Assembly (NCBI GenBank): GCA_013289085.1
Contig: JABDAR010000005.1
Coordinates: forward strand, 8,947-72,946
Direction of reading: 5' to 3'
DNA: 64,000 nt
Source of the DNA: Gammaproteobacteria bacterium
GTDB lineage: Bacteria > Pseudomonadota > Gammaproteobacteria > JABCZS01
In this document: positions 22,450 to 23,377 of the stretch, one piece after another
Numbering within the stretch: the first letter of the stretch is position 1
Layout: every line of letters begins with the position of its first letter
Translations under genes and position numbers: made by a program
The notes under the pieces: model-generated
What the model was told of the DNA's origin: nothing
The model's database searches: none
What the model saw: only the letters and a program-made list of their open reading frames with translations

Positions 22450-23377
22450 AAATCGTCACCATATATAATAATAAAATAGCCGCAACGCCGTTATGTAAAA
22501 CAGCAGCCCATAAAGGCACATGCATAACAACATTAATAATGCCCAAAGTAATTTGTGCAGCAAGAACAATTAATAACCCAAAAATTATTTTTTTGCTGAT
22601 AACTTTTGAATGTAAAAAATAAATACTCATGGTGATTAAATATAAAGCCGTCACCAGCGCACCTAAGCGATGAATAAAATGAATAGTGACACGTTCGGGA
22701 TGGTCTAAAAATCCACCGTCAAAATTACGATCAATGGGAATGAAAATATTAAATGCTTCAAAGTTTAAAGCCGGCCACCATTGCGCCTGGCAAGTCGGAA
22801 AATCCGGACAAGCAAATGCCGCATAATTAGTAGACACCCACCCCCCCAAAGCAATTTGCAAAATAACTATCAAAAGTCCAATAATGCTAGCAATCTTCAC
22901 CCCCTTAAGAAAGGGGGTCGCTCGCAGAGCGGGGGGATTTTGCAATCGCAAATGCACCCACCAAATCATCGACAAAGTCGCCATCCCACCCAATAAATGC
23001 AACATCACAATAGTAGGATGCAAAAGTTTAGTCACCGTCCACATGCCCAGCAACGCTTGAAAAATAATCAGTACACTCGTAAAGATTAATAAACCACGAA
23101 CTTGATAAAGTGGTTTATGGACAAATGCCAATACCGTCAGCGCAAACACAAATAATCCCAAACTCCCAGCAATATAACGATGAATCATCTCAATCCAAGC
23201 TTTATCTTGTTCAAACGTGCCATCTTGCACTATCATCGCCCCATAACAACCCGGCCAATCCGGACACCCTAATCCTGCATCACTTAAACGTGTAAATGCA
23301 CCCACCATGACTACCGTCAGAGTCAATAAGGCGAGTAACAAAGTAATGATACGATAACGTTTAATTAAATCAGCCAA
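22433..23377 (-). CDS. ctaA: heme A synthase (COX15/CtaA)
   Basis: Eight-TM pattern, CPDWPGC and CPDFPTC pairs, and conserved His residues (HRYIA, HRLGA). Confidence 0.85.
   Translation of the reverse strand: MADLIKRYRIITLLLALLTLTVVMVGAFTRLSDAGLGCPDWPGCYGAMIVQDGTFEQDKAWIEMIHRYIAGSLGLFVFALTVLAFVHKPLYQVRGLLIFTSVLIIFQALLGMWTVTKLLHPTIVMLHLLGGMATLSMIWWVHLRLQNPPALRATPFLKGVKIASIIGLLIVILQIALGGWVSTNYAAFACPDFPTCQAQWWPALNFEAFNIFIPIDRNFDGGFLDHPERVTIHFIHRLGALVTALYLITMSIYFLHSKVISKKIIFGLLIVLAAQITLGIINVVMHVPLWAAVLHNGVAAILLLYMVTIYESLA
22898..22941. repeat. GC-rich double-hairpin mini-element, copy A (inside ctaA, in frame)
   Basis: CACCCCCTTAAGAAAGGGGGTCGCTCGCAGAGCGGGGGGATTTT. Hairpin 1 is CCCCCTT/AAGGGGG and hairpin 2 is CGCT/AGCG. 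It encodes about NPPALRATPFLKGV in the central CtaA loop. Confidence 0.7.

What the first reader, a model, noticed from the sequence alone, without database searches (positions are those of the whole stretch)
22898..22941. GC-rich palindromic mini-element inserted in frame inside heme A synthase (ctaA)
A 44-bp double-hairpin element (CACCCCCTTAAGAAAGGGGGTCGCTCGCAGAGCGGGGGGATTTT) stands out from the AT-rich coding context of ctaA. It is translated as ~NPPALRATPFLKGV in the loop between the two four-helix halves of CtaA, and the reading frame stays intact. Closely related copies occur at 45751-45801 and 62668-62697. This behaviour resembles Rickettsia palindromic elements, which colonise ORFs in frame.
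Basis: seen in the sequence. Interest (0 to 1): 0.6.

Follow-up and report, generated by a model that had tools for sequence, protein, structure and literature searches.

The report
Hairpin repeat embedded in ctaA linker
A 46-base double-hairpin DNA repeat, from a family scattered through many bacteria and phages, encodes the whole linker between the two halves of a Legionellales heme A synthase; it is read in frame, but it is old and adds no length to the protein, so it is not a fresh insertion.

Summary
The sequence is exactly as described. It lies in frame in ctaA, encodes NPPALRATPFLKGV (residues 147-160), and has one full relative (45757-45802) and one half relative (62673-62693) in the window.

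A covariance model built only from other phyla finds these three sites and nothing else. So this is a true member of a dispersed repeat family. The family has a constant CCCCCTT-loop-AAGGGGG hairpin, a highly variable but perfectly Watson-Crick second hairpin, and a GGGGG(G)AT(T) tail.

The "insertion" reading fails on length. The spacing between the TM4 and TM5 anchors is 47 residues here, against 43-52 (mode 49) in 117 homologues. The element sits at the same codons in four Legionellales ctaA lineages (75-95% aa identity). Hairpin 2 differs in each lineage but always pairs. Five other lineages have a hairpin-free loop of about the same length.

The family is mostly intergenic, has no GTAG/CGTC tag and no target-site duplication, and matches no Rfam family. 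It occurs in many phyla and in phage contigs. In a Halothece CobN it does add about 38 residues.

Verdict: a resident, translated copy of a REP/RPE-like DNA-level repeat of an apparently undescribed family. How it moves is unknown. Interest is moderate.

The parts
22433..23377 (-). ctaA (heme A synthase, COX15/CtaA family), 314 aa. It carries the element in frame.
   Evidence: Listed as an ORF. Pfam PF02628 at E=2.7e-69. 95-50% identical homologues. Conserved Cys pairs CPDWPGC and CPDFPTC in alignment A1.
22899..22918 (+). Copy A, hairpin 1: A-CCCCCTT / AAGA / AAGGGGG-T. This is the constant hairpin of the family. On the coding strand it encodes T-P-F-L-K-G-V.
   Evidence: 8-bp stem. Model R1, built without window sequences, aligns it.
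22919..22931 (+). Copy A, hairpin 2: CGCTC / GCA / GAGCG. This is the variable hairpin, with a C-GNA-G triloop on this strand. On the coding strand it encodes A-L-R-A.
   Evidence: The orthologous copies in L001, L125 and L126 have different sequences that still pair.
22931..22945 (+). Copy A, constant tail GGGGGG-ATTTT(GCAA). On the coding strand it encodes (L)Q-N-P-P.
   Evidence: Contigs from other loci in runs X1/X2 align to 22896/22900-22945/22947 and then diverge, which marks the unit's limits.
45757..45802 (+). Copy B, full unit: G-CCCCCTTT/ACG/AAAGGGGG-C, CGCCC/CTAA/GGGCG, GGGGGG-ATTTTT. It is the best match to the family model in the window.
   Evidence: R1 gives 48.7 bits, E=7e-14. 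Limits come from other loci in X1/X2, which align to 45757-45801/45803.
45783..46268 (-). EVE-domain gene. Its last residues (..EKSPRP) and its stop codon (45783-45785, in the loop of hairpin 2) are supplied by copy B.
   Evidence: Pfam EVE covers residues 6-154 of 161. Translation. tblastn matches of 80 relatives mostly stop at query residues 152-160 and none is close (at most 67% identity), so this is consistent with an element-supplied tail but does not prove it.
43822..45718 (-). dxs. The mechanical ORF runs on to 45825 through copy B, but the Dxs profile starts at ORF residue 47. The ATG at 45718 ([12 protein letters not shown]...) is the likely start, which leaves copy B just upstream.
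62673..62693 (+). Copy C: hairpin 1 only (G-CCCCCTTT/CTT/AAAGGGGG-C), followed by a decayed tail (GTGGATT). It is intergenic, between the NlpA-lipoprotein gene's stop codon and panE.
   Evidence: R1 gives 22.7 bits, E=2e-5, with hairpin 2 missing.

Best explanation
**What it is.** The ctaA segment is a resident, translated copy of a small dispersed DNA repeat of about 46 bp. The unit has three parts:
- a constant hairpin, CCCCCTT(T)-loop-(A)AAGGGGG;
- a second hairpin whose sequence differs from copy to copy but is almost always perfectly Watson-Crick;
- a constant tail, GGGGG(G)AT(T..).

**How it most likely works (inferred).**
- It probably acts at the DNA level, most likely as hairpins in single-stranded DNA.
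- It is copied or homogenised in trans by an enzyme that I could not identify.
- It leaves no target-site duplication.

**Why ctaA tolerates it.**
- In ctaA the unit lies antisense to the gene.
- In that reading frame it has no stop codon and encodes a Pro/Ala/Gly/Lys-rich peptide.
- It occupies the poorly conserved linker between TM4 and TM5.

**History.**
- It entered, or overwrote, that linker in an ancestor of a group of uncultured Legionellales.
- The linker's length stayed within the narrow range seen in all homologues.
- Since then it has been kept structurally intact in some lineages and lost to drift in others. The upkeep could be selection on DNA structure or gene conversion with other copies.

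**Shown:** family membership; in-frame position; no length gain; orthologous persistence with compensatory changes in hairpin 2; dispersal with sharp ends; absence of tags and duplications.

**Inferred:** action at the DNA level; mobility or gene conversion; neutrality for CtaA function.
For: **Family membership.**
- Model R1 was built from 20 copies in other phyla, with no window sequence. It finds copy B (48.7 bits, E=7e-14), copy A (41.5 bits, E=1.6e-11), copy C (22.7 bits) and nothing else above noise in the 64 kb.
- R1 also finds the ctaA copies in L001, L125 and L126, and an inverted pair in L128.

**Dispersal with sharp ends.**
- Runs X1 and X2 hold the window contig. In them, roughly 8 to 15 or more other contig loci align only to 22896/22900-22945/47 or to 45757-45801/03, and their flanks are unrelated.
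- One of these stretches is identical to the ctaA copy over 46 nt.

**Old and orthologous.**
- ctaA of the window, L001 (95% aa), L125 (85%) and L126 (75%) all have the unit at the same codons.
- Hairpin 2 on the coding strand reads GCTC-TGC-GAGC, GCGC-GGC-GCGC, CGCCT-TGC-AGGCG and CCGT-CGAA-ACGG.
- Nucleotide identity of the element to the window copy is 91%, 87% and 72% in those three relatives. In L002 it is 35%, although the rest of the L002 gene is 80% identical.

**No length gain.**

**Linker position.**

**DNA-level signature.**
- In 148 distinct aligned copies, all 6 pairs of hairpin 2 show changes on both sides, 91% of cells are paired, and G-U or U-G pairs are almost absent.
- The loops of hairpin 2 on the sense strand are mostly GAA, GCA, GTA or GGA closed by C-G. 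From my own knowledge, this is the very stable d(GNA) DNA triloop; the mini-hairpin literature surfaced.

**The family can sit in ORFs elsewhere.**
- Halothece CobN has 48 residues where PDB CobN 9uk9 has 10, exactly at a cluster of these hairpins.
- Copies lie between Pfam domains in a Flavobacteriaceae sensor protein and in an HsdR.

**Source organism.** A cluster mate of the 77%-identical CtaA is named 'Legionellales bacterium'.
Against: - No mobilising enzyme was found and no empty site was found. Mobility rests on dispersal alone.
- The equal linker length requires either an insertion followed by a compensating deletion, or a replacement event. Neither is documented.
- The neighbour-joining tree of CtaA is not bootstrapped, and the intact copies are not monophyletic in it. 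One ancient gain with several losses cannot be told apart from repeated gain or gene conversion at the same site.
- The cross-phylum set was collected with a pattern that fixed hairpin 1 and the tail. Only hairpin 2 and the flanks are unbiased evidence, and convergent unrelated families cannot be fully excluded.
- No RNA or protein data exist for this organism.
Confidence: 0.6

Rival explanations
1. This is the first reader's view: a recent RPE-like in-frame insertion that added about 14 residues to the CtaA linker.
For: - The segment is a family member, is in frame, and is much more GC-rich than its surroundings.
- A 46-nt identical twin exists at another locus in the same sample.
- In Halothece CobN the family does add length.
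Against: - Anchor spacing is 47 residues here, against 43-52 (mode 49) in 117 homologues.
- Element-free relatives have loops of equal or slightly shorter length (0-3 codons).
- The element is at the same codons in lineages down to 75% aa identity.
- There is no target-site duplication. The flanking GATTGC repeat is 52 nt apart, which is out of frame, and it is not conserved in L125 or L126.
Confidence: 0.08
2. The hairpins are a selected cis-acting RNA structure within the ctaA mRNA. For example, they might pause translation between the two halves of the protein during membrane insertion, or act as a processing or stability site. On this view the intergenic relatives serve similar RNA roles.
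For: - The structure is kept through compensatory changes across four ctaA lineages, while an unconstrained loop diverges to 35% identity.
- The RNA folds are strong, at -22.7 to -25.6 kcal/mol.
- The position between the two pseudo-repeats of the protein is suggestive.
Against: - G-U pairs are almost absent among hundreds of covarying cells.
- The loop preference is the DNA-type GNA on the strand antisense to ctaA.
- Copies lie in either orientation relative to neighbouring genes.
- Copy A is not terminator-like, and copy B is only weakly so and on the non-coding strand.
- No Rfam family matches.
- Five ctaA lineages do without it.
Confidence: 0.1
3. The family is a host-serving DNA motif rather than a selfish repeat. 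It could be a binding or structural site that acts in single-stranded DNA at the replication fork, or a fold-back triplex or alternative-pairing switch formed by the C-run and the two G-runs. On this view the ctaA copy is kept because of that chromosomal role.
For: - Both full window copies have the G-rich sense strand on the strand with rising cumulative GC skew.
- The length of the distal G-run tracks that of the hairpin-1 G-run: 52 of 65 cases against 35 of 182.
- GGGGGAT(T) mirrors AAGGGGG.
- Only Watson-Crick pairing is seen.
- The element persists in ctaA.
Against: - With only two oriented copies there is no orientation statistic.
- L128 carries an inverted pair.
- Copy number looks low and patchy among relatives: about 700 kb of other EVE-gene loci have none.
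- Tandem arrays and pile-ups in phage contigs look more like a selfish or regulatory repeat.
- The run-length correlation may simply reflect lineage.
Confidence: 0.15
4. The hairpins arose in place, for example by template-switch mutations that turn near-palindromes into perfect ones. Their likeness to the other loci would then be convergence on simple C5/G5 hairpins.
For: - Length is unchanged relative to element-free orthologues.
- 'CAA AAT' at one end and 'AAR ATT GC' at the other are ordinary conserved ctaA codons, also present in element-free relatives.
- Template switching can make hairpins without changing length (own knowledge; the literature surfaced was not read in detail).
Against: - The match covers three independent features in the same order and spacing as in copies from other phyla (41.5 bits, E=1.6e-11).
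- A locus elsewhere has the identical 46 nt.
- The segment is a sharp GC-rich island in a 38% GC gene.
Confidence: 0.05

Closest known systems
Rickettsia palindromic elements (RPE; Ogata et al. 2000, cited in PMC3733652 and PMC3184786)
   Same: - A palindromic repeat family in an intracellular-type bacterium.
- Copies lie in frame inside functional genes and are translated.
- The position tolerates extra or variable peptide.
   Different: - RPEs are roughly 100-150 bp (own knowledge), against 46 bp here.
- RPEs add residues relative to orthologues, whereas this copy adds none.
- PMC3733652 says R. conorii RPE sequences end in a specific tetranucleotide (the retrieved passage is cut off before naming it), whereas no GTAG or CGTC tag is found here.
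- This family is found across many phyla and in phage contigs.
REP / REPIN elements mobilised by RAYT tyrosine transposases (GTAG- and CGTC-tagged superfamilies, PMC3733652; REPINs, PMC3116915)
   Same: - Size of 20-50 bp and GC-rich hairpins.
- Mostly extragenic, and often right after stop codons.
- Sometimes supply a stop codon or lie inside ORFs.
- Frequent inverted doublets and clusters.
- No target-site duplication.
   Different: - There is no GTAG or CGTC tag.
- The unit is a fixed hairpin plus a highly variable perfect hairpin plus a G-run tail, not one imperfect palindrome.
- No RAYT gene was seen next to any copy, although I did not search for one systematically.
- The same constant sequence recurs across phyla, whereas REP families are usually species-specific.
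MITEs such as Correia/NEMIS, RUP, ERIC, Nezha and BRE (reviewed in PMC3184786 and PMC10969869)
   Same: - Non-autonomous small repeats that fold into stable structures.
- They fuse with or sit inside ORFs, extend the 3' ends of genes, and are co-transcribed.
   Different: - MITEs are 70-300 bp with terminal inverted repeats and target-site duplications.
- This unit is 46 bp, shows no duplication, and has only a weak AAAWTSCCCCC / GGGGGGATTTT end symmetry.
Small dispersed repeats (SDR4-6) of heterocystous cyanobacteria (Elhai et al. 2008; recalled from memory, paper not held)
   Same: - Very small (under 50 nt) hairpin-forming repeats with signs of mobility.
- Found in intergenic DNA and nested in other sequences.
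- Many of the cross-phylum hits here are cyanobacterial.
   Different: I could not compare the sequences. SDRs were described as 21-27 nt and restricted to cyanobacteria.

Membership tests
Rickettsia palindromic elements (RPE) | In-frame presence inside an intact, conserved gene | tested here: met
   The ctaA ORF is intact and the Pfam profile is covered at positions 2-322 of 322.
Rickettsia palindromic elements (RPE) | The element adds residues that orthologues without it lack | tested here: not met
   Anchor spacing is 47 residues, against 43-52 (mode 49) in 117 homologues.
Rickettsia palindromic elements (RPE) | Length of about 100-150 bp and sequence similarity to RPE consensus sequences | not testable with these tools
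   No RPE reference sequences were available.
REP (GTAG/CGTC-tagged) / REPIN-RAYT | A GTAG or CGTC tetranucleotide at one end of the palindrome | tested here: not met
   At most 4 of 141 copies have any of GTAG, CTAC, CGTC or GACG within 8 nt of either end.
REP (GTAG/CGTC-tagged) / REPIN-RAYT | Predominantly extragenic, often in inverted doublets or clusters | tested here: met
   Most copies in low-GC loci are intergenic. Inverted neighbours occur in many loci and in L128. Thiobacillus has a tandem array of four. The window's own copies are singletons.
REP (GTAG/CGTC-tagged) / REPIN-RAYT | A linked RAYT (IS200/IS605-like Y1 transposase) gene in the genome | not tested
   Only 64 kb of the genome is available. 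The 19 window ORFs scanned against Pfam include no transposase.
MITE | Target-site duplication flanking the element | tested here: not met
   The longest shared word between left and right flanks is distributed as in re-paired controls. The GATTGC repeat around copy A is out of frame and not conserved.
MITE | Terminal inverted repeats of 15-30 bp and a size of 70-300 bp | tested here: not met
   The unit is 46 bp. Its ends share at most about 10 nt of imperfect symmetry.
Intrinsic (Rho-independent) terminator | A GC-rich hairpin directly followed by a T-run on the transcribed strand at a gene end | tested here: not met
   Copy A gives no terminator-like site. Copy B gives weak sites only on the + strand, while both neighbouring genes are on the minus strand.
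Any Rfam 15 RNA family | A covariance-model match at the gathering score | tested here: not met
   No family covers the element in the window or in 26 motif-bearing loci. E-value scans give only noise.

The most novel reading that the evidence does not exclude
The ctaA copy may be one member of an undescribed, very widely spread superfamily of DNA-level repeats. The superfamily occurs in Legionellales, Beta- and Gammaproteobacteria, Cyanobacteria, Bacteroidota, Bacillota, Ignavibacteriota and other phyla, and in many phage contigs.

Its unit pairs an invariant C5TT/AAG5 hairpin and a mirror G5AT tail with a second hairpin that is remade or re-perfected at each copy, with Watson-Crick pairs only. 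This points to a new copying or maintenance mechanism acting on single-stranded DNA, possibly involving a fold-back C:G*G triplex or alternative pairing. The same mechanism could overwrite short coding linkers without changing their length.
Probability: 0.25. Interest if true: 0.75.

Novelty: new variant of a known kind. Interest (0 to 1): 0.5.

Why it matters
Small palindromic repeats inside genes are known: RPEs, and some REPs and MITEs. So the basic phenomenon is not new. Three points go beyond the usual picture.

- **A translated repeat copy can persist.** It has stayed structurally intact through deep divergence (75% aa identity) inside an essential respiratory-assembly gene, while the same linker drifts freely in sister lineages. 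Something other than the protein maintains it.
- **It replaced a linker rather than lengthening it.** That does not fit simple insertion models.
- **The architecture is widespread.** The same constant-plus-variable double hairpin recurs in many phyla and phages, without the tags that define the known REP superfamilies and without an Rfam entry.

If the family is really one entity, it offers a tractable system. Cultivable carriers exist, such as Maribacter, Stenotrophomonas nitritireducens and Microcystis. They could be used to ask how very small repeats are copied and kept palindromic.

For annotation, the finding also explains an artificial N-terminal extension of dxs and the odd C-terminal tail of the EVE-domain protein.

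Tried and rejected
- **Rfam.** Gathering-score scans of the window and 26 motif-bearing loci found nothing at the element. The only two matches, DUF805b and Cyano-1, lie elsewhere in their loci. E-value scans gave only noise.
- **BLAST.** Copies A and B against plasmid and phage records gave only chance-level partial hits.
- **Source genome.** Neither the window's CtaA nor its CtaB protein is on record, so the source contig could not be extended.
- **Empty site for copy B.** The metagenome scan with the EVE protein found no relative closer than 67% aa, so no empty-site comparison was possible. It did yield L128/L129, which carry family copies.
- **Target-site duplication.** The GATTGC repeat flanking copy A was considered and rejected. 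Its spacing of 52 nt is not a multiple of 3, both copies are ordinary conserved codons, and it is absent in L125 and L126. The family-wide test was negative.
- **Terminator reading.** Rejected.
- **Transcript evidence.** No RNA run is listed.
- **Elhai et al. 2008.** The paper on cyanobacterial small dispersed repeats is not held.
- **CtaA tree.** The neighbour-joining tree is too weak to fix the ancestral state.
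Full report
**1.

The string CACCCCCTTAAGAAAGGGGGTCGCTCGCAGAGCGGGGGGATTTT is at 22898-22941 on the + strand. It lies within a 314-codon ORF on the minus strand (22433-23377). That ORF is a COX15/CtaA heme A synthase (PF02628, E=2.7e-69; homologues). In the gene's frame the segment reads NPPALRATPFLKGV (residues 147-160).

An AlphaFold2 model built on 25 homologues (pLDDT 79.7) places residues 147-156 in the non-helical linker between helix 121-146 and helix 157-185. This is the join between the two four-helix halves.

Both strands fold into two adjacent hairpins, well below shuffled controls, as RNA and as DNA.

The window is 38% GC. It has only 22 runs of five or more G or C, and 8 of them lie in this site and two others. 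The hairpin-1 pattern is found at 3 places against 0.03 expected. The full two-hairpin pattern is found at 2 places against 0.00 expected.

**2. The two other copies.**

Copy B (45757-45802, +) has the same order of parts: G-CCCCCTTT/ACG/AAAGGGGG-C, then CGCCC/CTAA/GGGCG, then GGGGGG-ATTTTT.
- It overlaps the 3' end of an EVE-domain gene on the minus strand. The last residues (..EKSPRP) and the stop codon of that gene come from the element. Matches to 80 EVE relatives mostly stop at query residues 152-160. None is closer than 67% identity, so this fits an element-supplied tail without proving it.
- It lies upstream of dxs. The mechanical dxs ORF runs through the element to 45825, but the Dxs profile starts 46 residues in, and the ATG at 45718 is the likely start.

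Copy C (62673-62693) is hairpin 1 alone with a decayed tail. It lies between the stop codon of an NlpA-lipoprotein gene and panE.

**3. It is a real family, and a wide one.**

The hits came from Oscillospiraceae and other Bacillota, many cyanobacteria, Flavobacteriaceae, Xanthomonadaceae, Thiobacillus, Burkholderiaceae, Methylococcaceae, Deltaproteobacteria MAGs (as named in the records), Ignavibacteria and others.

The pattern left the spacer free, yet the spacer is itself a hairpin.
- It has a stem of 4 bp or more in 99 of 139 copies, against 25 of 139 after shuffling.
- Its loops on this strand are mostly GAA, GCA, GTA or GGA closed by C-G.

I built covariance model R1 from 20 of these copies, using no window sequence.
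- In the window it finds copy B (48.7 bits, E=7e-14), copy A (41.5 bits, E=1.6e-11) and copy C (22.7 bits), and nothing else above noise.
- It finds the ctaA copies of three relatives and two copies in L128.

On 148 distinct aligned copies, all six pairs of hairpin 2 show changes on both sides and 91% of cells are paired. Every shuffle and every slid control scores far lower.

G-U and U-G pairs are almost absent: 1-2 cells per pair among dozens of double changes. Together with the d(GNA)-type loops on one strand, this points to a DNA palindrome rather than an RNA structure kept by selection.

Other properties of the family:
- Most copies in low-GC loci are intergenic.
- Thiobacillus has four head-to-tail units directly after a stop codon.
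- Many loci have an inverted neighbour copy.
- There is no GTAG or CGTC tag and no target-site duplication.
- No Rfam family covers the element.
One 38-kb phage contig has at least ten copies in the same orientation. They share a constant hairpin 1 and tail but have ten different hairpin-2 stems of 7-9 bp.

**4. Close to home.**

A cluster mate of the 77%-identical CtaA (P0004) is named 'Legionellales bacterium'. The window's large ORFs without Pfam domains and its 1775-aa class-3 lipase protein fit that group.

L128/L129 are the closest EVE-gene relatives (67% aa). They carry an inverted pair of full copies plus a half copy in one intergenic region. About 700 kb of more distant EVE loci carry none.

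Two small soil-metagenome runs hold the window contig. In them, other contigs of different depth align only to 22896/22900-22945/47 or to 45757-45801/03, and then run on into unrelated sequence.
- This amounts to roughly 8 to 15 or more further loci per run.
- One stretch is identical to the ctaA copy over 46 nt.
- There are also 44-48-nt high-depth unitigs consisting of the element alone.

So the unit is discrete, has sharp ends, and is present in several genomes of the same sample at low to moderate copy number.

**5. It is not an added segment.**

In an alignment of 25 CtaA proteins, the linker is present at about the same length in all of them.

The distance from the TM4 motif HLLGG to the TM5 motif Q..LGGW is 47 residues in the window. 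In 117 homologues it is 43-52, with a mode of 49.

Reading the DNA of nine relatives gives two groups.

| Group | Loci (aa identity to window) | State of the linker |
|---|---|---|
| Intact | window, L001 (95%), L125 (85%), L126 (75%) | Element at the same codons |
| No hairpins | L002 (81%), L003 (78%), L004 (77%), L005 (77%), L127 (67%) | Same length within 0-3 codons; some look like decayed copies |

In the intact group, hairpin 2 on the coding strand reads as follows. Each version still pairs.

| Locus | Hairpin 2 (coding strand) | Peptide |
|---|---|---|
| window | GCTC-TGC-GAGC | ALRA |
| L001 | GCGC-GGC-GCGC | ARRA |
| L125 | CGCCT-TGC-AGGCG | ALQA |
| L126 | CCGT-CGAA-ACGG | VETA |

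Examples of possible decay in the second group:
- L003 has CCT TTC GCA AAA AGT GCA AAA (PFAKSAK), where L126 has CCC TTT GCA AAG GGG GCG AAG (PFAKGAK).
- L127 keeps AAT CCT CCT.

Element identity to the window copy is 91%, 87% and 72% in the three intact relatives. In L002 it is 35%, although the rest of that gene is 80% identical.

An unconstrained linker therefore randomises at this evolutionary distance, while the element does not. Something maintains it. Either its DNA structure is under selection, or it is repeatedly converted by other copies. The identical twin locus and the block-wise differences in hairpin 2 fit conversion.

In an unbootstrapped neighbour-joining tree the intact copies are not monophyletic. 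I therefore cannot choose between one ancient gain with several losses and repeated replacement at the same site.

The narrow length range across all homologues suggests the linker length is constrained. That would favour a compensating deletion after an insertion, or a replacement event.

**6. The family can add length elsewhere.**

In a Halothece CobN (L062), a cluster of these hairpins lies inside the ORF. Against the solved CobN 9uk9, the query has 48 residues where the homologue has 10.

Two further copies lie between Pfam domains, in a Flavobacteriaceae propeller/Y_Y_Y/SpoIIE protein and in an HsdR restriction subunit.

**7. Mechanism, with what is shown and what is inferred.**

Shown:
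- A discrete dispersed unit without duplications or tags.
- Watson-Crick-only covariation in hairpin 2.
- DNA-type loops that differ between strands.
- Frequent inverted pairs and tandem arrays.
- Long-term in-frame residence in a linker.

Inferred:
- The unit acts as hairpins in single-stranded DNA.
- It is copied or homogenised in trans by an unidentified enzyme, or by recombination between copies.
- Hairpin 2 stays perfect through self-templated repair or through regeneration at each copying event.
- The ctaA copy is a tolerated passenger. In that orientation its frame is open and it encodes a flexible Pro/Ala/Gly/Lys peptide in a linker.

Two further observations remain unexplained. The distal G-run length follows the hairpin-1 G-run length (52 of 65 against 35 of 182), and GGGGGAT(T) mirrors AAGGGGG. 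Both fit alternative pairing with the C-run or a fold-back purine-motif triplex. I could not test this.

**8. Comparison with known families.**

- **It behaves like** RPEs and like the REPs found inside ORFs (PMC3733652, PMC3184786).
- **RPE:** it does not meet the size (own knowledge) or the added-residue criterion.
- **REP superfamilies:** it lacks the GTAG/CGTC tag.
- **MITEs:** it lacks the target-site duplication, the inverted-repeat ends and the size.
- **Terminators:** it is not one.
- **Rfam:** it matches no family.
- **Cyanobacterial small dispersed repeats:** these may be related, but I could not obtain the paper.

I file it as a new variant of the known kind 'small dispersed palindromic repeats that can be carried in frame'.

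**9. Verdict.**

Interest is moderate (0.5). The phenomenon is known in outline. The distinctive points are:
- persistence with compensatory change at an orthologous coding site;
- replacement without any length change;
- the wide, untagged, phage-associated family with a highly variable perfect hairpin.

Noticed in passing
IMGVR_UViG_3300025736_006128 (loci L224, L248, L269): One 38-kb viral contig carries at least ten copies of the family, all in the same orientation. Hairpin 1 (CCCCCTTTGAAGGGGG) and the tail (GGGGGATGTTYYTT) are constant. Hairpin 2 has ten different stems of 7-9 bp.
   Followed up: partly
L007 4860-5030 (Thiobacillus MAG): Four head-to-tail units of the family start 12 nt after a stop codon. 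One of the four has a compensatorily different hairpin 2.
   Followed up: partly
L062 1380-1480 (Halothece MAG, CobN gene): A cluster of these C/G-run hairpins lies in frame in CobN. It coincides with about 38 extra residues relative to the solved CobN 9uk9 (48 against 10 residues between the aligned blocks).
   Followed up: partly
window 22900-22945, and runs X1/X2: Two small soil-metagenome runs hold the window contig (71.7 kb and 48.3 kb). The same runs contain further family copies on contigs of quite different depth. One 46-nt stretch identical to the ctaA copy lies at the very end of a 45.7-kb contig. Element-only unitigs of 44-48 nt occur at 3-6 times the window contig's depth.
   Followed up: partly
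window 45719-45825: The longest dxs ORF (43822-45825) reads through copy B and gives a spurious 36-residue N-terminal extension ([36 protein letters not shown]). The likely start is the ATG at 45718.
   Followed up: partly
window 62686-62714: The 3' arm of copy C (AAAGGGGG) looks like a ribosome-binding site. It sits 4 nt before an in-frame ATG at 62697 of panE. The more conventional start (MIISVIGAGALG) is at 62712. If 62697 is used, the hairpin would sequester the binding site.
   Followed up: no
L126 6621-7588: In this ENA contig, ctaA is split into three called ORFs of 186, 80 and 52 aa, although the element itself is intact. This is either a pseudogene or frameshift errors in the assembly.
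   Followed up: no
window 34-2037, 25474-30496, 46332-49436, 52722-60170: Several very large ORFs (613-1775 aa) have no Pfam domain, or only a class-3 lipase domain. The relatives L004 and L005 encode a 1957-aa lipase_3 protein and an 875-aa PP2C protein next to the same cox-assembly cluster. This is the effector-like repertoire expected of Legionellales.
   Followed up: partly
all family copies (cellular and viral loci): The length of the distal G-run follows that of the hairpin-1 G-run: when the first is 6, the second is 6 in 52 of 65 copies, and when the first is 5, the second is 6 in 35 of 182. About 16% of cellular copies have an upstream ATCCCCC that could pair with the GGGGGAT tail. Some copies (L051) are symmetrical four-way structures.
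   Followed up: partly
window 1-64000: No tRNA, rRNA or other Rfam family reaches its gathering score anywhere in the 64 kb.
   Followed up: no
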